NCBI GenBank assembly: GCA_964016885.1
Contig: OZ024740.1
Location: forward strand, 185,194,001 to 185,258,000
Reading direction: 5' to 3'
Length of the DNA: 64,000 nucleotides
Source: Eledone cirrhosa
Taxonomy: Eukaryota
In this document: positions 13,091 through 64,000 of the stretch, piece by piece
Numbering within the stretch: position 1 is the stretch's first letter
Layout: each line of letters opens with the position of its first letter
Program-made: the position numbers and the translations under genes
The notes under the pieces: model-generated
The model's input: the letters and a program-made list of their open reading frames with translations, nothing else
The model's database searches: none
Told to the model about the DNA's origin: nothing

Positions 13091-13196
13091 AAATGCAGAT
13101 CTTACATTAATCTTATCAACATTTAATTTAAAAATTAGGTATTAGGATTGGTGCTCTGAAATAGCAATGTATGTATAGTATATTTGGCAATATACC

Positions 13197-13236
13197 GCTC
13201 TGATGATGGCCAAACAGCGTGAAACAGACTGTTAGC
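13197..13236 (+). ncRNA. Type I hammerhead ribozyme motif, copy 1
   Basis: GCT-CTGATGA-TGGCCAAACAGCGT-GAAAC-AGACT-GTT-AGC; one stem II mismatch. Confidence 0.65.
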
Positions 13237-13473
13237 TGCTGTCACTTCTTTCGCTGAAAATAAGTAAGTGACATAGTCACTACTTTAAACTGATGGTGTA
13301 TGGTCTTCTAAATGTTTTTTAATTAAACATATGGTATATTGCCAAATATACTATACATAATTTTGTGTATACATCGCTCGTTCAGAGCACCTAATTTTTG
13401 CTGGACCAGCAATCGCTCTGTATAATCAGCTCTTGATTATTACTGGAATTCTATAAGAATCCAGCTTCTATAA

Positions 13474-13560
13474 TTTTCGGCGGAAGCAGGGGGTGCATGG
13501 CTCTGATGATCACCAAACAGCGTGAAACAGACTGTTAGCTTCTCTCCCTTCTTTCGCCAA
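13474..13560 (+). ncRNA. Type I hammerhead ribozyme motif, copy 2, with extended stem I
   Basis: ggcggaag..gca tg GCT-CTGATGA-TCACCAAACAGCGT-GAAAC-AGACT-GTT-AGC..ctttcgcc; consensus of the two copies gives stem II CGC/GCG with loop CAAACA. Confidence 0.7.
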
Positions 13561-15344
13561 AGGAAGTGACATAGTCACTACTTTAAACCGATAGCGTATG
13601 GTCTTCTAAATGTTTTTAATTAAACATAGGGTATATTGCCAAATATACTACACATTCACTCGTGAATATATTGCTATTTCAGAATACCAATCCTAATATA
13701 TATATATATATATTGCATTTTATGGTTTACATTACGACTAATGAAACATTTAGTAGTGCTAGAAAGTTAATTATATGAAACTAATTTCTCTCTAAAATTC
13801 ATGCTAAGATATATGAAAAAATGCTGCAAAAAAAAAAAAAAAATGAATCTCTTGGTAAGTGATAAAATAAGCTTATTTGAAGTCCAGCTTTTTCTCTTAT
13901 CATAGGGAAGGTTTGTTATGTGCCATGCGAATAGCGAATTAGGATCTGAATAAGCTCTAAATGTAAAACATAGCAAAAATAATACTAAAGCTGCCTACTG
14001 CTATATCAAAAGCTGAATTAATATTGCAATAGAATAACATTGTATACAAAATAAGTATGAGAGAAATGAAAATATTAGCAGGCAAGGGAAAGGGGAAGAG
14101 GGATAACATAAATATATTTAGTAGTAAGGTGTAAAGGTAGAAAAAATATATAATGTGCTAGGAAGCACTGTTGAAGAAAATTCATGAGAATTCTTCAAAG
14201 ATAGCAAAACAGGTTTACAACATACAAAACATCAATAGGTGAAAGTTTTTTTTATATGAAAGCATGCTGACCGACATAAATAATAGGGAGAAGGAAAAAG
14301 GGAAAACAATGATATGAGGAAATATTGGTCTAGGGGCAGTTAAATGTGTTTTTTATTTTGCAGAATTGGCAGATATTCTGGATTAAATGTGCTATGATGT
14401 TTAATTTTGTCACCTTGTACTGTAATCATATTCTGTCAGGATGAGTTTTGCATGTTGACCCTAAAACTGATAAAATATCTACGTAATATATTGAGGTTAA
14501 TTATAGTTAATGCCTACAAAACCTAGCTTTTTACCTCTAAAAGAAGCCAATGAATTAGGATTGTCATTATGTTGTGAAACAGAAAGTTTTGCGTCATTTT
14601 TTCTTGCTCTCTGTTCAATTTCCATTGAGTTTAACTTTATCTTACATTATTTTGGGGTTTGGTAAAATATAGTACCTATCCAAAATGATGTAATGAAGGA
14701 ATTATTAAGGCATCAGACAAGATACTTTCCATGATTCATTTCAAATCTTTATTCTGAGTTCTTATTTGATAGACTAAATCTGTCATCCAGTTTAATGGCA
14801 TAATGTTCTCTTCTTTGATTAAGCAATAGAAAAAAATATAGAAATATAAAAACAAACGGTAACTTTACTACTTTCTTGTTCATAAACATAAATGGAAAAC
14901 CATAGATCTGGTTGTACTTCACTAGATATACAACTTTATGCCAAAACATTTAGCAAGATAATTAGGTAATGCTACATGTTTTCAAGTATAGTTTCAGGAA
15001 TTCTTAAAATAGAATCTGTATCAGATAAGTGAATTTGCATAAGATAACTAAGACACTGATGCTTTGACTCACTTCTTTCTGATAAAATCTAAAACAAGAA
15101 TATTTGTAAAAATGTATGAGATAATATAATTATTTTTCAGAAATGTGATTGACAAAACCAAGTAAGCACTACTATACATGCTAGAATTTACCTGGAGAAA
15201 TATGTTGCTCAGTGCCTTGTCCATAATTTGCTTAACTGGTGAATGGAAGCCCTTTCGTATATGTTCTCTACTGAGAATTTCAACAGTTTCTAATTTAATT
15301 TTCAAAAAGGTTTTTTTTTTATCAGCACACTAGGCTTTAATAAT

Positions 15345-23544: not shown

Positions 23545-25208
23545 AATTATATAGAATTCACAAGAATCAAAGCTATGTTCAAAGCATTTATTCACTTACA
23601 ATTGTTTCATCCAAACCTAGGCTTGGAGTCTTCGGAGCGTTTTTCAATGTTTGTACACATAATTGACCGCCTTTCCAATGCAAGAGACATACAGATACAT
23701 ATATTGATGTACAGTGGAGTGACATATATTATACTATACTATTTTTGTACAGCAATTCAAATTCAAAATCAAAATTAAAATTAAAACAAAATTAAAACAA
23801 AATTAAGATACATTGGGCATTTAACACAGATAATGCAGGAGGATAGTTTGTTAGTCAGATGTAGTAGTTAGTGTATGCATTAGTTACACATGGGGCATGC
23901 AAGTGTGTCTCATTTATATATGATTATTGTGTGGCAGGGTGTTACATGTAATACAAGCACTTTAAGCGGGTAAGTAAGAGTATTATGGTGGTTGTAGTGG
24001 TAAGGTATTTTTTGTATAGAATTTTCTCTCTCTCTATATATATTTAAAAAAATAGAGGTGTGACACACGACTTGTGATATATTAGTAAAAAGGAAAAGAA
24101 AATGCTGACAAATTTTTCTCAGTGAAAAATAGTTTAATTAGGAATAAGTATAAATTAGTAATAAGTATTAGTTAGTATTCAGTTTTAGATTTAAGTTTTA
24201 CTGATGCGCTGGGTGTGGGTGGCTTTATCTTTAAATTTGTAGAGGGGAAAAATTCTAAAGTTGGGATGATTTTGGGCAGCACAGGTATCTCAGTGCTATT
24301 TTTCTGTATTCCCGTATTTTGATTTGGGATCTATGGACAGTCATGCGCTGGCGGTTTTAGTCTGGCATTTGTATTGTTCTCAACAACCTGAGCAAGTTAA
24401 TACATATATTAGGTTTTCTGATGTGCATGTGAAATTGTGTTTTACTATAACACGTTGTCCTTGTTTGAAATATAATTCCGAACCCTCTATTAGGTTGATG
24501 CATATACCACAGTTGAGTCTATCGTATTTTTTTTACTGTGGGTTTCGTTGTTGTGGTTGGCAGTACTTTGTCATGTGTTAGGATGTTTTTCATTGACTTA
24601 GATTGTCTTTTGCTCTTTATGATATCGTCTGTTCGAAGGATTTGGTTCATTCTATGGTCCTTTTTTAATACAGGGATGTTCTGGAGGATGGAGTCAAAGG
24701 CCTCATTGTTGAGGGGGTTGTGTGTGGATATGTATGGAAGAGCTTTTAGTTTCGGTTGATTAACTTTAGGGTGTCTAAGGTCCTGGGTACTGATTTTTAG
24801 GGCACGTTGCATTCCATTGTCAATTAGTGATGCAGGGTAGTCCCTCCTTATGAGTGTGTCCTTTAGTTCTTGTAAACGTAAGTAACAGGTGTTTTTATTG
24901 GAAACTATAGTACAGATTCTCTTGGCTAAGTTGTAGGGAATATTAATTTTAACGTGTCAAGGGTGGCATGAATTGAAAGGAAGATATTGCTTGGAGTCTG
25001 TGGGCTTGTAGTATATGTCTGTTTCTATTTTTTTGTTATTAATCTTAATGAGGATGTCGAGAAAGGGGAGTTGTTGATGGCTGTATTCCATTGTAAAATT
25101 AATATTCGTGTTCTGTCCATTTATAAGAGTGTGAAGTTCTTTAAGTTTCTCGATGTTTTCGTACCAAAGGATGAAGTAGTCAGCTAGATATCTCTTCCAG
25201 TTCTTTTC
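23545..25208 (-). mobile_element. 5'-truncated Penelope-like element (RT C-terminus, GIY-YIG endonuclease, 3' non-coding region with HHR)
   Basis: Minus-strand peptides WKRYLADYF, INFTME..LPFLDILI..TDIYYKPTDSKQYL.FNSCHP..NIPYNLAKRI, LPYISTHNP, and FTCTSENLIYVLTCSGC.EQY (GIY-YIG); several stops; (TA)n at the 5' junction; the 3' boundary is approximate. Confidence 0.85.
23593..23639 (-). ncRNA. Hammerhead motif downstream of the Penelope-like ORF
   Basis: Minus strand: CGCT-CCGAAGA-C-TCCAAGCC TA GGTTTGGA-T-GAAAC-AATT-GTA-AGTG; palindromic stem III ACAATTGT; core U4->C. Confidence 0.65.
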
Positions 25209-25243
25209 TATATATATATATATATATATGTGTATGTGTGTAA

Positions 25244-39711: not shown

Positions 39712-39903
39712 AATCTGTTATTTTAATAAATATTTGCTCTACGGTTCTTATATATTTTGTTATACTTTGGGAGGCTCATGTTGCCAATAAGAAACACACG
39801 CACCAGTTGCTTTCACTTCAATTTATTATAATAAATTTATAAATTTAGGAATTTATAAATTTCCAGTCGGTTGGTTCCACAACCAGATGATTGTTTATAT
39901 ATT

Positions 39904-39946
39904 GTCAAAGTTCTTTCGTCACACATTCTATGACCTCTTCAGTGAC
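39904..39946 (-). ncRNA. Minimal hammerhead motif, left arm
   Basis: Reverse-complement copy of 40049-40091. Confidence 0.6.
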
Positions 39947-40048
39947 TGGGGATTCTTTTCTTTGTTTTTGTTTGTGTGTTGACACAACACACACACAGGC
40001 GTAGGACAGAACAAAGGAGAGGCACAAAAACAAAGAAAAGCATCCCCA

Positions 40049-40091
40049 GTCACTGAAGAGGTCACAGAATGTGTGACGAAAGAACTTTGAC
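40049..40091 (+). ncRNA. Minimal hammerhead motif, right arm
   Basis: GTCA-CTGAAGA-G-GTCACA GAATG TGTGAC-GAAAG-AA-CTT-TGAC; 2-bp stem III, CUU triplet, one extra G before stem II. Confidence 0.6.
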
Positions 40092-41362
40092 AATATATAA
40101 ACAATCATCTGGTTGTGGAACCAACCAACTGACCGAAAATTTATAAATTCCTAAATTTATAAATTTATTATAATAAATTGAAGTGAAAGCACTGGTGCGT
40201 GTGTTTCTTATTGGCAACATGACCCTCCCAAAGTATAACAATATCGGTTTCAACACACGTTTTCAGATAAAGAATCTTGCTAAACAAATTCAGAAACGAA
40301 AAATCTTATATATTTGATATATATTTATCCTTATCGAGCCCTCTTTTGATTTTAGTCTTCAAATTTATTATTATATATATATATATACACATACATACAT
40401 ATCTCATATTGATGATGATGATATAAATTATTCTATAAATTTCACCAGAGTTCTCTATTCTAATAAAGCACAGTGTATCTACAAGTAATCCGCACTGATG
40501 AAATGAATGGATATTTACAGAAAACCAAGTTGAACAAAATGTTTTTGTTTGCCATCACACTTTTACTGAATATTATTATCAACAACAACATGCAAGACAA
40601 AATGTTGTATAAAGCATATATGTGTGTGCGTGTGTATTTCTTGTAGAGTGATTGTGCTAATACATTACTCACATTTTGTGTTCCTGAAATAATATGAGCA
40701 AAATTAAGTAATACATCTCTAGGATTATAATAAATTATTTTTTCTTTCCTCTTGCTGCACATTTTGAAAATTGAATATCATAAGATCAGAATGGTAATGT
40801 ATAAATGTATTCGTACATCATTTCATACTAAATATTAATGTATTAATGCAAGGAAACCTCATATACTATGACAACAGGCATCCTTATAAGAACATAAAAT
40901 AAAATGGCTTATAAATATTGATTACTTCATATTTTAAGGCAGCAGAAGAAAGAAGTAAATATGATTATTGATGTTCATGCCTTTCTCAGGGATATTAGTA
41001 GTACTGAAGTAAAACTATTTTCAACAATGAAACCAAATATATCATGTTATAGAAAGGCCTGCTGTGAGGTTATTTATTTTCTCTGCCAAACTTATGAAAA
41101 TGTATATAAGTGAAGACAAATTGCAGACTTATCAGATATTTTCGTTTTCCATCAACATTTCTTCTGCCTTATGCTACAGGGAGAATTCTAAATTAGTTGG
41201 ATTCCACAGATAAATGAATAAAATCATTTCAACAATAAGATCAGCTTTTCATCAATAATTTATGGTTTCTAAGTATTACTAAACATAATGAATTCTTTCT
41301 GAGTCCTTTAATATAATACTGAAAATGTTCACAACAATCGGTCCAATAGTATAAATACTATA

Positions 41363-43753: not shown

Positions 43754-45952
43754 TCATCATCATCATCATCACCGTTTTACGTCCGTTCTTCCACGCTAGC
43801 ATGGGTTAGACGGGTTGTCCTGGTGTGGGCAGTGTCTGGTCGGCTGACCATGCCTTGCTCATACAGGAACTGATTTGGCTTGATTTCTACAGCTGGATGC
43901 CCTTCCTAACACCAACCTCATTTACAGTGAGTGCTGGGTGCTTTTTCGTGGCGCCTACACGTCCACTTTACAGTGTGGGCTGGGTGCTTTTTTTGCTATG
44001 GCACCTCCACGACCACCTTGGGGTGTGGGGCATATTGTCTATATGCTTCAGCTTGTACCCATGGAAGGTTGGGTACTCTGTATTACTGCGTGACGCCAGA
44101 GGTTATGGTCGTGTGTCATCGCCTTTGAGAGGTGTAATTGGGTAAGGTCGGCTTTTATCACCTCATCCCAGGTCATCTTGGGTCTCCCCACTCCGCGGTT
44201 TCCATCGACTTCTAGTGCTCTGCACCTTTTTATGCAGCTGTCATCCTTCATACGCATCACATGTCCATACCAGCGCAACCGCCTCTCCTGCACACAGCAT
44301 TTGATTCCTCTTATGCTCGGTCTCTCTCTCAATTCATTTATGCTTTGTTGTTCGCGTATATTACTGTTACACATCCATCGGAGCATGCAGGCTTCGTTTC
44401 TCTCTAATCTATGTAAGTCTTCCACCTTCAGCGCCCAGGTCTCACTACCATGCAACATCGCTGTTCGGATACACGCATCATACAGTCTGCTTTTCATTTT
44501 GAGGGAGAAGCCTTTTCTAGCAAGCAGTGGTAGTAGTTCCCTAAACTTCTTCCATCCCGTTCTTACCCTAGTTATTGTACTTTCTGAACACCCACCTCCG
44601 CTGCTAATTCGGTCACCTAGGTAGTAGAAGCTGTCTACTGTTTCTACAGAGCCCTCCCAGAGATTGGTGGTATTTGTTTCCTGTGGCTGTTTGCTGCTTG
44701 CTGTCCCAGCACAGCTGCTGCATGTGAAGCCTACATTCTTAATTAAGCTTCCTGAGATCCCGCTACATCTCTTGTGTACCCATTGTTTGCATTTGGGGCA
44801 GAGAATGGAGTTCCTACCTACACCTTTCCTACATACTGAGCAAGGCCATTTCCCTGAGGGGATCTGGGTTCTGTTTTCTCATCTACTTACAAGGACCTTA
44901 GTCTTTGTCATGTTGACTTTGAGACCCTTTCTTTCTAGTCCCTGCTTCCAAGTTTGGATTTTCTTCTCTAGTTCTACCATAGATTCAGCTATAACTGCGA
45001 GGTCATCAGCATACAGGAGTTCCCATGGCATCCGGTCTTAAACTCCTCCGTTATTGCCTGCAGGACTATGATGAACAGGAGGGGCTAAGAACAGAGCCCT
45101 GGAGGACCCCAACCTGTACGCTAAATTCCTCGCTATACTCATAGCTAATCCTAACTTTGCTGACTGCTCCCCTATACATGGCTTGTACAGCTTTCACAAG
45201 TCATTCATCTACTCCTAGTTTTCTAAGAGCCCACCAGATTACAGCACGTGGAACTCTGTCAAAGGCTTTCTCAAGGTCGACAAATGCCAAGTAGAGTGGC
45301 TTACTTTTAGCTAGGTACTTTTCCTGTAACTGCCTGACAAGGAAGAGGGCATCAGTGGTGCCGCTTCCTGCTACAAACCCAAATTGCATCTCGTCTAGTT
45401 TCCCCCGGTCCCTAATCAACTGTGCTATAACTCTTTCTGTTACTTTCATGACCTGGTCCATCAGCTTTATACCTCTGTAATTACCTCTATCTAGTGCATC
45501 ACCTTTACCTTTGTAGCAGTTGACAATGATGCTACTGCACCAATTTGTTGGTATGACACCTTCTAGTATTACCTGGTTAACAATACGTGTGGTTATAGTG
45601 TGACCTACAGACCCAGATGCCTTCAGCATCTCGGCGTCTATACCCGATGGACCGGTTGCCTTCCCCATCTTCATATCTTTGATTGCCTTACTTACTATAT
45701 TGCTGCTGACTTGTACTGCTGGCCCCTCTATAGGGTCTACTTGAGGTAGGGTCTCTTCTTCCCATGCATTCTCCTCATTTAGTAATCTATCATAATGACT
45801 CTTCCATGCATCTTTCTTCTCAACACTTGTGAGGGCAAGCTCACCTTTATCATTCCGGATATACTTCTCTACAATGACATCACAATTCTCTCTGACACAC
45901 TGCCTCGCAATCTTGAACACCTCCTGTTTCTGGTCCTCACGTTGCAAAACAT
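43754..45952 (-). mobile_element. 5'-truncated RTE-clade LINE (reverse transcriptase, PHD finger, C-terminal domain, 3' UTR, (GAT)n tail)
   Basis: GKATGPSG, NYRGIKL, QFGF..G.GTTDA, AFVDLEKAFDRV, LLYADDL, MLHGSETW, RRLRWYGHV, GRPKMTW; stop at 45201 and a frameshift near 45030. Confidence 0.95.
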
Positions 45953-46201
45953 GCTTGAATATATATATATATATAAATACACACATGCACACACACACTC
46001 ACATATATATATATATGTGTGTGTGGGTGGGTGTGTGGGTGTGTGTGCATAGAGATATGTATATATATATAATCAACACAGTTCATCTAATGCCAAAACA
46101 TACATTTTAGGAATACTAGATAGACAAACTAATACTACAAAGTTTAGCTTACATCATCTCCCTGGCTGCAGTTTTGGGACTCAAAAGACAATACTAAATA
46201 T

Positions 46202-48289: not shown

Positions 48290-48958
48290 AACATTATCAT
48301 CATTGTTTTCCATGCTCACAGAGGTTGGATAGGTCTTTTCAACACAACCTCTCTCCCCTTGTTGTGATTCTTTGTCATCTCCTCTGAGAGTCACATCAAT
48401 TTGAGATAAGGTATCTCCATTTCCACCCAAGTCTTTCTCAACCTACCTCTACTATGGCTTACTTCTCTCACATTTACATTGCATATTCAACAAAGCGTGT
48501 CAAACGCAGTCTCTGCCCATATTTCACTATCATGCAGCATTGCACTTTGCACACAGCCATCATAAACTCCTCCTTTTGTACATAGCAAGTAGCCTTTTGT
48601 TGTTAACAATGGGAGTTGCTCTCCAAACGTCTTCCATCCTAACCTCATCCTGGCTATTTTGATCTCAGAGCATCCTCCTCCACTGCTAATTAGGTCACCT
48701 AGATTGCAGAATCTATTAACATCAATGGATCCTTTATATGATTGGAAAATATTTATATCACCGATGCTCTTTCTGCTGATTACTCCAGTACATCTACATA
48801 CAAAATCTTCCTTTCCTTTTTGTCTGCCTGTTATCCCACTACATCCCTTGTGTACCCAAGATTTACATTGTGTACATCACCTACTCCTTTTCTACATACT
48901 GAGCAGGTGAGCAGGGCCCACTTCCCTGAAGGAGTCAGAGTTCTATCTTCTTTCCTAC

Positions 48959-51371: not shown

Positions 51372-52266
51372 TTATCATCATCATCATCATCATCATCATC
51401 GTTTAACGTCCGTGTTCCATTCTTGCATGGGTTTGGACGGGAGTTTTCCCACTTGAGGCAAGAGTGGTTGTCTTGCTCGCATAGGACTGTCTGGCGGGTT
51501 TTCTACAGTTGGATGCCCTTCCTAACACCAACCACATTTACAGTGTGGGGCTGGGAGGTTTTTACTGTGTTGCCTACACGGCCACATTACAGCGTGGACT
51601 GTCTGGCAGGTTTTCTACAGCTGGATGCCCTTCCTAACACCAACCACATTTACAGTGTGGGACTGGGACGTTTTACCGTGTTGCCTACACGGTCACATTA
51701 CAGCGTGGACTGTGTGTTTTTTTGTCGTGACACTACACGATCTCATTTGTTTCGGCCTGGATTTTGTGGCACCAACATAACTTTACATTGAAAGGGGCGG
51801 TGTGGATGGGGTGGGACGGGGGTGTATTTTGTTAGAGATGCCTACTGACTGTAGTAGGTTTTACTTTGTATTTAGGTAACGCGGGTCTTCTCTATTACTG
51901 AGTACCGCCAAAGCTCTCGGTCCAGTGACATTGTCTTGGAGAGGTGTAAGTGTGTGAGGTCGGAATTTATCAGCTCGTCCCAGGTTTTTCTGGGTCTGCC
52001 TACTCCGTGGCTACCATCTATCTTTATTGCCCTGCACTTTGTTATACAGCTGTCGTCTTTCATGCGCATCACGTGACCATACCAACGTAGCCTTCTCTCG
52101 AGTAAACAACATCTGATCCCTCTTATTTCTAATTTTTTCCTTAGTTCGTTTATGCTTTGCCGTTCGCGTATATTACTATTACACATCCAGCGGAGCAGGC
52201 AAGCTTCGTTCCTCTCTAGTCTGCGTATATCCTCTGCACACAATGCCCAGGTCTCACTGCCATGGA
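51372..52266 (-). mobile_element. 5'-truncated RTE LINE with a tandem duplication in the 3' UTR
   Basis: ORF 51872-52243 RLERNEA..RRLRWYGHV..GRPRKTW; about 110-bp unit repeated at 51484 and 51595; (GAT)n tail. Confidence 0.92.
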
Positions 52267-53904
52267 TTATATTACAGTTAATTTTTCTATTCCCTATATT
52301 TCAGTTGTATGAGAATTTTGGATGCTGTACATTCAACTGGGGCATTTTTCACTAAGCCATATTCTTAACATTCATAATCTCTTTATGGTTATAACTCTTT
52401 ATCCTACCAAGTAAAAATGCTCCACTGTTCAGGGGTAAAACGAATGAAGTATCTCTTATTTTAACTTTTTAATATCAAAAAGACTATATTTGATAAGCCT
52501 ATTCCTCTTGTATGCTTGAATGTGATGTGAATGTTTTCATATTCACATTGCACACTATACATTTATGCAAGTATTTCATTGTGGAAGTTCTTTGTGAATA
52601 AAGACTAAACGACCTAACAATTAAAAAAATAACTGAGAGAAATTAAATAGAGAGACTGCTGTTTGAAATAAAGTTGACTGAATTTATATAATTTTTCGAA
52701 AAGTAGGCATCCTCAATAATTTTCACTTGTAAATATTTCATGTTAATTCATGAGTATTGAAACCACTATATATATCTAGTCAATTCAAGAAATAGCAGTC
52801 ATGGTTAGTCTCACTCCCATCTATATGTTATATCTCAATTATTTTAATTGATTAAAATATCCTTGATTACTACATCATGTATGCTACTGTCTAGTTTTTA
52901 TTTAAGGATTTAAATGAGGTTTAAGAATTTTCAAAGACTGATTCTGAATCTTTTTATCTTACTTGTCTTATCAGAGACTAATTCTTAATCATTTTAACTT
53001 ATTCGTCTTATCACTTGAAACTATGCTCAATCTTAACATTACACTTCATCACATTCTGATGTTTTATGTTGATTTCTCGGATTTCAAAAAAGTTATTTTT
53101 CCCTTCTATTTCCTGACTGAATGTTATGATATTTTCTGAGTTTTTTATCGAACATAATTTATTCCTCCTCTTCTTTTTAAGATAGTCATTAAACAACAGA
53201 AACATCTCCAGCCAGATGCTTTTATATTGCTAAAGGTATATAAAAAGAGGATGAAACAAAAATGTTGTTCAGCTGTGTAAGATTTCCTATCATGTTATCT
53301 TAAGCCATTTTCAGAAATCTTACTGCATCAATAAACCTCTTGACATGAATCAGATATTTCATGATCCTGTATTTAAACCTTAGCATAGCTGGATATCTGC
53401 AAATGTTTTCTTCCATTACTAATCTAGGATTAAGTATTCTCTTATTGGCTTGAATCATTATCTGTTTCCTGAATGCAGTAGAAACAGAACGAGAAGTCAT
53501 TTTGAGGGCAGAATGCATATCATTATTAGACCAAGTGTGTACAGTTCAGAAGAGTTTGCATAGAAAAAAATCATGCATAATATATGAATCATGTGATGCT
53601 CTGCATTGATTTGTTTCACATTCACCTAAGTATTTAACAACAATTTATTGAACAACTTGTGTTGTATATTGATTCTATCATTTCAACATCCACTTTCTCA
53701 ATCTGCTTTTTATTTCACTATGCTAGTCAATCAGTCTACTATTTATCTTTCTCCTTCTCATTATTCTGTATATTACAAAATATTCCTTCACTAAATGGAA
53801 TATTTTTTATGTGTGAATTATCTTCCTCATTATTATATATCTGGGGCATATATTAAGGTTGTTATGAAATTACAGACATGTACACTAAATAGTTGTTAAG
53901 TCTA

Positions 53905-54680
53905 CATCATCATCATCATCATTTTACGTCCGCTTTTCCTTGCTTGCAAAGGTTGGACGGGTCCTATTCAGCACAGCATCTCTCCGTTTGTCACGGTCCT
54001 TTATCATCTCCTCGGTGAGTTTCAGCGTTCTGAGGTCTGCTCTCACCACCTCCGCCCATGTTTTTTGTGGTCTACCTCTACTGTGTCTTCCTTCTACTAG
54101 GATTTCTTGGTACTTCTTTACTCAGTGGTCATCCTCCATATGCATCACATGTCCATACCATCTCAGCCTTCTTTCCTGCACACCACAACTTATCCCTCTG
54201 ATACCCAGTTTCTTTCTCAACTCGTCAATGCGTGGTTGTTCACGTACATTGACATTGCACATCCAACGGAGCATACTTGCTTCATTTCTCTCCAGCCATC
54301 GCATATCTTCTGCATTGCTGCCCATCTCTACCATGCAGCATCACGCATCACACACAGGCATCATATAACTGTCCTTTCATACGCAGTGAGAAACCCTTCT
54401 TTGTCAACAGAGGAAGCAGCTCCCTAAACTTCTTCCAACCCGTCCTTATTCTAGATACTATGGCCTCGGAACACCCCCTCCCATGCTAATCTAATCACCT
54501 AGGTACCAGAAGCTATCAACCACTTCTATAGAACCCACCTGTATTGGAAAATGTGTCTATCAATGCGATTCCTACTGCCAACTTTCCCTGTACATCTACT
54601 GCATACCTAGTTTTCCCTACCTGTTAGTTTGACTGCTATCCCACTACATCTCTTGTGTATCCAAGATCTGCATTGCATAC
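53905..54680 (-). mobile_element. Decayed RTE LINE 3' fragment, different subfamily
   Basis: WLERNEASMLRWMC..QERRLRWYGHV; short 3' UTR and (GAT)n tail. Confidence 0.9.
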
Positions 54681-62049: not shown

Positions 62050-62271
62050 TGCAAATACATACACACACACACTTAAATACATACACACACACACACACAC
62101 ACAGACAAACATACATACACACATGCACACATACATACATACATATATGCATATATATAAACATGCATATATATATATGCATATATATATATATATATAT
62201 ATATATGCATATATATAATTATGCATATATATATATATGCATATATATATATATATGCATATATATATATA

Positions 62272-62305
<34 letters not shown>

Positions 62306-62336
62306 TGCTTATATATATATATGCATATATATATAT

Positions 62337-62377
<41 letters not shown>

Positions 62378-62379
62378 TA

Positions 62380-62410
<31 letters not shown>

Positions 62411-62439
62411 GCATATCTATATATATATATATATATATA

Positions 62440-62481
<42 letters not shown>

Positions 62482-62497
62482 CATATATATATATATA

Positions 62498-62534
<37 letters not shown>

Positions 62535-62715
62535 GTGCATATATATATATGTATGCATATATATGTATATATATATGCATATATATATATATATATATAT
62601 ATGCATATATGCATATATATATATATATATGCATATATATATATATATGCATATATATATATATATGCATATATATATATATATATATATATGCATATAT
62701 ATATATATATATATA

Positions 62716-62751
<36 letters not shown>

Positions 62752-62874
62752 TATATATATATAGATACATATATATGCATATATATATATGCATATATAT
62801 ATATATATACATATATATGCATATATATATATATGCATATATATATACATATATATGCATATATATATATATGC

Positions 62875-62907
<33 letters not shown>

Positions 62908-63137
62908 TATGCATATATATATATATATACATATATATGCATATATATATATATACATATATATGCATATATATATATATGCATATATATATATATATGC
63001 ATATATATATATATATATGCATATATATATATATATATATATGCATATATATGCATATATATATATATATACATATATATGCATATATATATATATATAT
63101 GCATATATATATATATGCATATATATATATATATATA
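62050..63137. repeat. About 1.1-kb (TA)n microsatellite punctuated by TGCA
   Basis: Direct reading. Confidence 0.97.
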
Positions 63138-63716
63138 TTTCAGTATACATATGTGGATGTACATTTTTAACTTAATTGTTTAAGCGCCAGTCATACAAAA
63201 GTGAGTTACAAACGAAACGAAATTTAATTTCGTTTCGTTATTTGTTTTTATCGTCTCCGCTGAACCGGTACGTACTCACGCTCTATGCAAATTAGTCTGC
63301 CCACTACTAATTTTCATAGAAAAAGCATATAACGATATGTGCTTTTACGATTCTCTAGAAAGGCCGGAAGATAGGTAAATATTGCTGATGAGATGTAACA
63401 ACATCGAAACTAGTCCAATATTCCTTGTCTGGCTTTCTGGAGAATAGAGGAAAGGTGTTTCCTCAAAAACCAGTATGACTCTAAAAACCGGTTTGTCTGT
63501 GTGTTTACATACAGAATAGCTGGACACTCACAGTAAAGTGACCAGTGAAAAACTCGGTACATCTACATATGTACACGTATGTGTATTCATATGCATACTA
63601 GTATTTCAGTATACATATGTGGATGTACATTTTTAACTTAATTGTTTAAGCGTCAGTCATACAAAAGTGAGTTACAAACGAAACGAAATTTAATTTCGTT
63701 TCGTTATTTGTTTTTA
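63136..63716 (+). mobile_element. Retrozyme-like element: 466-bp unit with about 114-bp terminal direct repeat, inserted in (TA)n
   Basis: tttcagtatacatatgtggatg...tttgtttttat at 63138-63251 and 63604-63716; central HHR. Confidence 0.88.
63351..63445 (+). ncRNA. Type I hammerhead ribozyme motif (canonical core, extended stem I)
   Basis: AATATTG-CTGATGA-GATGT AACA ACATC-GAAAC-TA-GTC-CAATATT (63378-63422); stem I continues via AGG/CCT and ATTCTCTAGAAAG/CTTTCTGGAGAAT. Confidence 0.9.
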
Positions 63717-64000
63717 TATATATATATATATACATATATATGCATATATATATGCATACATATATATGCATATATATATATGCATATATATATATATATA
63801 TACATATGCATATATATATATATATAAGAGCAGAATCCCTAGAAATAGAAAAACGCTCATCAGAAAAATTAAGAGAACGAACAAAAAGATCAACAAGCTG
63901 AATTACTGTCTGCAGCAACACATCAACTTGACTGCCATTTCATCACTAGAGATTAAAAAACATAACCTCCAAAACAACATAATGTCCCTCATCAACAATC

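What the first reader, a model, noticed from the sequence alone, without database searches (positions are those of the whole stretch)
63136..63716. Youngest-looking retrozyme candidate: 1.25 units of a 466-nt structured RNA with a textbook HHR
The terminal direct repeats differ at about one site (gcgCcag/gcgTcag). The HHR has a perfect core, 7-bp proximal stem I, a UA bulge and long distal stem I, 5-bp stem II and palindromic ACTAGT stem III with GUC. The unit has further hairpins (aacgaaacgaaatt-t-aatttcgtttcgtt; gtacatctacatatgta..tacatatgtggatgtac). A single internal HHR with repeats that do not contain it fits a permuted copy of a circle better than an LTR pair.
Basis: partly seen in the sequence, partly recalled or inferred. 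Interest (0 to 1): 0.85.

Follow-up and report, generated by a model that had tools for sequence, protein, structure and literature searches.

The report
Penelope-inserted hammerhead retrozyme, truncated copy
This is one short copy of a young non-coding repeat with a predicted self-cutting RNA motif, present about 7,800 times in this animal genome; its copies end at two fixed sites, usually as mirror-image pairs, which is likely the footprint of a Penelope-type jumping-gene enzyme copying a probably circular RNA from both sides of a DNA break.

Summary
Observation confirmed: a 466-nt unit plus 116 nt, one mismatch between the repeats, a type I hammerhead (HHR), strong fold (z -10). It is a single-armed, 5'-truncated copy of a metazoan non-LTR retrozyme family (7,800 exact HHR cores). 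The 'terminal repeats' come from truncation, not from LTRs. 3' ends are fixed: 99 of 101 fall at unit 110-118 or 40-49, and 81 of 101 abut (TA)n. 5' ends scatter. 31 of 33 head-to-head insertions have one arm ending at each site; none has two alike. A local Penelope-like element (PLE) with long open frames shows the same rule (7 of 7), and two insertions fuse the repeat directly to it. So PLE target-primed reverse transcription is the likely route. A circular template is favoured, not shown: one private allele is in all 8 units of both arms with no source array, but three insertions point to multimer templates. It is not the youngest copy. Cleavage and expression are untested; no RNA holder was listed. 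Verdict: new member of a known kind, with unusually clear mechanistic footprints. This scan noted the same pattern earlier on other DNA of this genome.

The parts
63136..63601 (+). One full 466-nt non-coding unit (36% GC; longest ATG frame 20 aa on the sense strand, 50 aa antisense)
63602..63717 (+). Partial second unit (unit 1-116). It ends at the family's distal 3' site and runs into the (TA)n tract; the last 1-2 letters are shared with the tract
63378..63422 (+). Type I hammerhead: stem I 7 bp, CUGAUGA, stem II 5 bp, GAAA, minimal palindromic stem III, GUC; predicted cut 63415|63416
63350..63445 (+). Extended distal stem I enclosing the hammerhead, with the UA bulge
   Evidence: MFE fold of 63345-63450
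63642..63649 (+). Proximal 3' end site of the family (unit 41-48), in a small hairpin (unit 36-49); not used by this copy; also at 63176-63183
   Evidence: loose TA ends behind 63648
63650..63717 (+). 'Tail' of about 69-74 nt between the two end sites, holding the 13-bp hairpin 63677-63705 (also 63211-63239)
63285..63292 (+). Octamer-like ATGCAAAT (unit 150), kept in the sister family but lost in a very young sublineage; role not shown
62150..63135 (.). 5' flank: (TA)n tract with interspersed TGCA; no second arm; the unit's first letters TAT match the tract
63718..63826 (.). 3' flank: continuation of the same kind of (TA)n tract

Best explanation
This is a single-armed, 5'-truncated copy of a young, abundant non-coding repeat family with a predicted self-cleaving hammerhead, likely written into (TA)n tracts by a Penelope-like reverse transcriptase/GIY-YIG endonuclease that primes at two fixed internal sites of a probably circular RNA. 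Shown: family size, two fixed 3' ends, scattered 5' ends, one-of-each ends in head-to-head pairs, TA targeting, the same rule in local PLEs, direct fusions with a PLE, and compensatory changes in the HHR stems. Inferred: (1) arrays are transcribed and the HHR, likely as a dimer, cuts out monomers that a host ligase closes; (2) a PLE complex nicks both strands of a TA tract, and each 3'-OH primes on the same RNA, one at unit 116 and one at 42-47; (3) each enzyme runs on through the cut site, round the circle, for a variable distance; (4) the two cDNA ends are joined head to head, or, as here, only one arm is fixed; (5) long arrays are later reshuffled by unequal exchange. PLE-type insertion alone I put at about 0.9; the circle, given that, at about 0.6.
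For: 7,800 exact 31-nt HHR cores, control 0. 3' ends: 58 of 58 in the best-scoring loci and 41 of 43 in a position-ordered sample fall at unit 110-118 or 40-49. 81 of 101 are followed by a TA tract, against 4.9% of window positions. 31 of 33 complete inverted pairs have one end of each kind and none has two alike; at the observed 56:43 ratio chance is about 0.49^31. PLE-D, a local RT+GIY-YIG family with open frames up to 1,281 aa stop to stop, ends at two sites about 60 nt apart in (AT)n, one of each in 7 of 7 head-to-head pairs among 13 loci. Frangieh 2024 (PMC11167929, parts 1-2 of 4 read) shows a PLE protein nicking and extending both strands and starting at two internal RNA sites that define the genomic 'tail'. 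Direct fusions with PLE-D: L036, a retrozyme arm (distal end) head to head with a PLE-D arm (proximal end), and L233, a retrozyme joined in line to a PLE-D 3' piece. For a circle: 90 of 98 complete arms cross at least one cut site, and only 1 of 102 5' ends lies within 276-286, so the templates were not cut linear monomers. Allele 229G is in all 8 HHR-bearing units of both arms of L051; the only other 3 hits in the genome lie on different haplotypes, so this assembly holds no array that could be its linear source. One insertion has 18 of 18 identical units over two arms. HHR stems covary at 7 of 14 pairs; the letter before the cut is C, T or A, never G, in 265 motif hits (overlapping loci not merged).
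Against: In all 3 inverted pairs where a variant is shared by both arms but not by all units (L034a, L057, L065), it sits in the same unit counted from the 3' end. That fits a multimer template; L065 does not fit a dimer or trimer circle. The 18-unit haplotype is not private: 70 units at 7 places, so a source array is possible. Long arms show recurring variants and period-4 repeats, so arm length overstates enzyme run length. Frangieh 2024 found HHR cleavage dispensable and uncut RNA the main substrate; Li 2026 saw cleavage in 1 of 9 Xenopus dimers; Craig 2021 reports non-autonomous Chlamys elements with multicopy head-to-tail insertions in a group lacking canonical HHRs. The partner is not pinned down: the unit showed no homology to the terminal regions of the four PLE families compared by blastn; PLE-D's tail (about 60 nt) differs from this one (69-74 nt); other insertions fuse to a sister retrozyme, two other PLE types, a LINE-like sequence or an unnamed repeat; fusions could also form by deletion between neighbours. 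In L052 and L233 both outer ends are distal-type. The covariation rests mostly on the split between two families, so on few events.
Confidence: 0.55

Rival explanations
1. Same PLE enzyme and same two start sites, but the template is a linear, uncut read-through transcript of a tandem array. The hammerhead is a slow or conditional relic, and arrays grow by DNA-level exchange.
For: Same-index shared variants in 3 of 3 informative pairs. Recurring variants within long arms. A homogeneous haplotype held in arrays at 7 places. Frangieh 2024: uncut RNA is the main substrate and no RNA-seq reads ended at the cut site. Minimal stem III.
Against: The L051 haplotype fills both 4-unit arms with no source array in the assembly. 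HHR stems keep their pairing across families about 65% alike, which suggests selection on the fold. Homogeneous two-armed arrays still need a monomer-to-multimer step somewhere.
Confidence: 0.33
2. The second arm and the arrays are DNA-level products: fold-back of the first cDNA, gene conversion between inverted arms, or satellite-type expansion.
For: Near-identity of the arms and same-index variants could come from fold-back or conversion. Post-insertion duplication is visible in L041 and in the 31-unit arm.
Against: Neither arm is always the longer (distal longer in 21, proximal in 10 of 31). Outer ends obey a strict one-of-each rule. In L036 and L052 the two arms are different elements, which fold-back cannot make. 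Copies are dispersed over many chromosomes.
Confidence: 0.08
3. Mobilised by a LINE (RTE- or CR1-like) rather than by a PLE.
For: An RT-bearing LINE-like remnant lies in the window. One arm (L062) is joined to LINE-like sequence (label from my reading of the frame, not from a library).
Against: No poly(A) or 3' repeat belonging to the element. Two internal end sites and multi-unit inverted arms match local PLEs and the published PLE tail.
Confidence: 0.03
4. A TRIM or LTR retrozyme with 116-bp LTRs.
For: This copy alone shows 116-bp direct repeats with one mismatch.
Against: Other copies have no such fixed repeats; 5' ends scatter over the unit and most loci are tandem arrays. The HHR is type I and lies outside the repeats.
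Confidence: 0.01

Closest known systems
Metazoan non-LTR retrozymes (Cervera and de la Pena 2020, PMC7229834: abstract, sections 14 and 17, passages; Li, Clavereau and Pollet 2026, 10.64898/2026.07.22.740005: parts 1-3 of 5)
   Same: Non-coding tandem units of low GC with a type I HHR in each; thousands of copies; co-occurrence with PLEs; a palindromic minimal stem III, as I recall for amphibian members (the abstract says those act as dimers).
   Different: Unit 466-468 nt, above the 170-400 nt of the 2020 paper but inside the 51-972 bp of the 2026 preprint. The parts read propose PLE mobilisation and do not describe insertion ends, two-armed insertions or fusions with PLEs; a word search of the 2020 text found 'inverted', 'target site' and 'microsatellite' 0 times. 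No matching PLE terminal repeat was found here. This copy has one HHR, so it is a monomer derivative by Li's rule.
Penelope-like elements with C-terminal GIY-YIG (Frangieh 2024, PMC11167929, parts 1-2 of 4; Craig 2021, PMC8557442 and its preprint, passages)
   Same: Two internal 3' end sites with a tail on one end, 5' truncation, inverted 5' copy, tandem copies, AT-rich or (TA)n targets.
   Different: Encodes no protein. The tail is 69-74 nt, not 30-40. Both arms can hold many units. The HHR has full stems I and II.
Non-autonomous Chlamys PLE derivatives such as MRC1 (Craig 2021, passage)
   Same: Non-coding, PLE-dependent, multicopy head-to-tail insertions.
   Different: That group lacks canonical HHRs and shares 3' sequence with autonomous partners; here an HHR is conserved and no such partner was found.
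L1 twin priming (recalled, not read here)
   Same: Head-to-head inversion from priming at both nicked strands.
   Different: As I recall, the two L1 arms copy adjacent, non-overlapping parts of one RNA; here both arms copy the same sequence, start at fixed internal sites and can span many units.

Membership tests
Metazoan non-LTR retrozyme | Type I hammerhead in each unit | tested here: met
   Rfam score below the gathering cut-off
Metazoan non-LTR retrozyme | Short tandem units, GC under 45%, dispersed in high copy | tested here: met
   466-468 nt, 36% GC, 7,800 cores
Metazoan non-LTR retrozyme | No protein coding | tested here: met
   longest ATG frame 20 aa sense, 50 aa antisense in the circularised unit
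Metazoan non-LTR retrozyme | At least two consecutive HHR units ('active' by Li 2026); applies to the single copy | tested here: not met
   this copy has one HHR; most other loci of the family meet it, so this marks the copy as a monomer derivative, not the family as foreign
Metazoan non-LTR retrozyme | Self-cleavage of the RNA | not testable with these tools
   needs an assay
Metazoan non-LTR retrozyme | Expressed as linear and circular monomer RNA | not testable with these tools
   no run on record as RNA could be laid
PLE-type insertion (works like) | Two internal 3' end sites, tail on one end only | tested here: met
   99 of 101 ends; 31 of 33 pairs one of each
PLE-type insertion (works like) | Inverted 5'-truncated arm and microsatellite targets | tested here: met
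Autonomous PLE (membership) | Encodes RT and GIY-YIG endonuclease | tested here: not met
Derivative of a PLE terminal repeat | Sequence homology to the pLTR of a local PLE | tested here: inconclusive
   none for four families by blastn; several further PLE families seen were only inspected by eye or not at all
LTR retrozyme / TRIM | Fixed terminal repeats in all copies, type III HHR inside them | tested here: not met
LTR retrozyme / TRIM | PBS, PPT and 4-5 bp target duplication | not tested
   PBS and PPT were not searched for; a duplication cannot be read inside (TA)n; one AT-rich target (L061) shows ATTATAA on both sides

The most novel reading that the evidence does not exclude
A dimeric Penelope-type enzyme grips one small ribozyme-made RNA circle at two sites 70 nt apart, primes both strands of a cut (TA)n target on it and runs round it from each side, giving mirror-image concatemers; it can also take a PLE RNA on one side and the retrozyme on the other. 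These insertions would be the genomic record of rolling-circle reverse transcription of an animal circular RNA and would explain the one-sided PLE tail.
Probability: 0.4. Interest if true: 0.8.

Novelty: new member of a known kind. Interest (0 to 1): 0.52.

Why it matters
How animal retrozymes get back into DNA has been proposed (PLEs, circular templates) but, in the papers read here, not shown from insertion structure. This family is young enough that ends, arms and fusions can be read directly. It gives a defined RNA, two exact predicted start sites, a defined target and candidate PLE proteins with long open frames, so PLE mobilisation in trans, two-strand priming and copying round a circle can be tested in one in vitro system. 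The single copy in this window is ordinary within the family; the interest lies in the family-level footprint, which the scan has also noted for other families in this genome.

Tried and rejected
Expression: no RNA holder listed; four runs of unrecorded kind were laid as contigs. Run X1 shows loose TA ends behind 63251 (6 contigs) and 63648 (3 contigs) but may be the assembly's own sample, so it is not counted as support. A 151-nt HHR query found nothing in the genome search, a limit of that search; the pattern search replaced it. snRNA-type promoter idea (newt satellite 2, recalled; two paper searches did not retrieve the paper): 4 U2 upstream regions showed no octamer within 600 nt and no match to the unit better than E 0.2, and a very young sublineage lacks the octamer; not supported. 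That haplotype proved not private. Template jumping between cut monomers: rejected, since arrays are mostly homogeneous for subfamily alleles and 5' ends do not pile up at the cut. PLE-A, -D, -E, -G as parent of the unit: no homology found. Pfam gave no hit for the whole PLE-D frame and a GIY-YIG hit just under the cut-off for its C-terminal part; its RT nature rests on a 30% match to PLE-A (E 1e-14), which hits RVT_1 and GIY-YIG. PDB gave only a weak endonuclease match (E 0.38). First HHR alignment had wrong coordinates for two rows and was replaced. Five arms were left out of the variant spectra (overlap, misalignment, separate old copy, the window's own); end tallies kept all arms with a readable end. 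The bacterial promoter scan and tRNA scan were uninformative. 'Octopus' was used once as a paper-search word on a guess from the repeat landscape; the host group was not tested.

Full report
Observation. The window holds, inside a long (TA)n tract, 581-582 nt made of one 466-nt unit and the first 116 nt of a second; the repeats differ at one site. A type I hammerhead lies at 63378-63422 with a predicted cut at 63415|63416. Rfam HH9 matches at E 2.7e-8, below its gathering score. The unit folds far better than shuffles (z -10.0). Stem III is only 2 bp around a 2-nt loop, so dimer action through the palindrome is the likelier active form (inference). The unit encodes no protein.

Family. The genome is 3.0 Gb. 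A DNA search returned 136 matches at 97-100% from 40 scored of 412 candidates, mostly tandem arrays. An exact 31-nt core pattern has 7,800 hits against 0 for the control. The first 100 hits fall in about 25 loci over 47 Mb, which extrapolates roughly to 1,500-2,000 insertions. In those 100 hits the two free stem II positions are always complementary. A sister family (471-nt unit, 303 of 466 letters matching) keeps the same core. Across 18 of the 21 distinct HHR variants, 7 of 14 pairs show two-sided changes, mostly from the split between the families. The window copy is not the youngest: it has two rare letters, whereas one sublineage has 18 of 18 identical units in one insertion and nearly all units identical in five others.

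Ends. I mapped arms in 35 stretches from the best-scoring loci and in 27 stretches covering the first 25 loci along contig C1, chosen by position. 3' ends fall at unit 110-118 or 40-49 in 58 of 58 and 41 of 43 cases; the exceptions end at 438 and 299. 81 of 101 are followed by a TA tract, against 4.9% of window positions. 5' ends are scattered (position-ordered set compatible with uniform, p 0.07; the best-scoring set is skewed by its selection), and 1 of 102 lies near the HHR cut. Of 33 complete head-to-head pairs, 31 have one distal and one proximal end and none has two alike.

Link to Penelope-like elements. Frangieh 2024 (PMC11167929) showed a PLE protein cutting and extending both target strands and starting at two internal RNA sites that delimit the genomic tail. 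Craig 2021 describes inverted 5' copies, a tail on one end and (TA)n targets. This genome holds several abundant PLE families with long open frames. PLE-A hits RVT_1 and GIY-YIG; A and D carry the CX2-5CxxC motif before a C-terminal endonuclease, which Craig assigns to Neptune and Nematis (read from the sequence; no tree built). PLE-D ends at two sites about 60 nt apart, one of each in 7 of 7 head-to-head pairs among 13 loci; one locus with three ends was not counted. Families A and G also show more than one 3' end in TA tracts. Two insertions fuse the retrozyme directly to PLE-D, with no TA between: L036 head to head, with distal plus proximal ends, and L233 in line at a 3-nt overlap. In a screen of 63 stretches these were the only such fusions with families A, D, E or G; two further hits were neighbours across a TA tract. 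Other fusions involve the sister family (L052), two other PLE types (L053, L148), a LINE-like piece (L062) and an unnamed repeat (L045). The partner is therefore a PLE in all likelihood, but which one is open; no PLE terminal repeat homologous to the unit was found.

Template. 90 of 98 complete arms cross a cut site, so cut linear monomers were not the template. For a monomer circle: allele 229G fills all 8 HHR-bearing units in both arms of L051, and its three other hits in the genome are on haplotypes 6-14 differences away; arms of one insertion share subfamily alleles. Against: in 3 of 3 informative pairs a variant shared by both arms but not all units sits in the same unit from the 3' end, which fits two enzymes starting in one unit of a multimer RNA, or conversion between arms; the 18-unit haplotype occurs at 7 places; long arms show later reshuffling; and published work finds HHR cleavage dispensable for a PLE and rare among frog dimers. 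I put the circle at about 0.6 given PLE insertion; both templates may be used.

What is known. Non-LTR retrozymes are an established class (Cervera and de la Pena 2020; Li 2026), and both papers propose PLE mobilisation. Five full-text searches did not turn up a paper describing two-armed, two-site retrozyme insertions or retrozyme-PLE fusions; the library lacks most subscription journals, and I read only the parts named. The scan's earlier notes report the same architecture for 310-, 422- and 467-nt families in this genome; I had reached this reading before the look-up, and the notes are not independent support. A look-up by sequence found nothing.

Verdict. A real, ordinary copy of a new family of a known kind. 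The family's insertion structure gives good genomic evidence for PLE-driven, two-strand priming and makes the circle model testable. Interest 0.52.

Noticed in passing
window 24077-25211 (-): Decayed 3' part of a Penelope-like element (about 91% DNA identity to family A, which has many copies with a 784-aa open frame), between TA tracts.
   Followed up: partly
window 39754-40312: Small head-to-head remnant of PLE family D terminal repeats, with hammerhead-like cores at 39942 (-) and 40053 (+).
   Followed up: partly
window 13140-13690: Two diverged copies about 303 nt apart, each with a CTGATGA...GAAAC hammerhead-like core (13200, 13503), ending at a short TA run; possibly an old retrozyme or PLE repeat.
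   Followed up: no
window 44048-45998 (-): LINE-like remnant with an RVT_1 hit and a PHD-like finger; further pieces near 48487-48876, 51872-52300 and 53889-54368.
   Followed up: partly
L052, L098, L104, L110, L112, L114: A sister retrozyme family (about 400-490-nt units, 65-75% alike) with the same HHR core, GUA triplet, TA targeting and two-end pattern.
   Followed up: partly
L174: One head-to-head insertion joins an arm of PLE family A (proximal end) to PLE family D (distal end), so mixed two-armed insertions also occur between PLE families.
   Followed up: no
L164/L165, L226-L232: A very young 468-nt sublineage with three clustered A>G changes that remove the octamer-like motif; 70 units at 7 places, nearly all identical.
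   Followed up: partly
L146 7712-8273: An insertion in a (CAT)n tract instead of (TA)n, with one arm ending off-site at unit 438.
   Followed up: no
runs X4 and X6 laid on window 63136-63716: Runs coded as other organisms (B, C) hold units about 98% alike; in X4 a single 495-nt contig closes on itself with period 466. Kind of run and relation to the host are unknown.
   Followed up: no
L206-L221: U2 snRNA genes lie in a tandem array of about 2.2-kb period; the 4 upstream regions examined lack an octamer within 600 nt.
   Followed up: no
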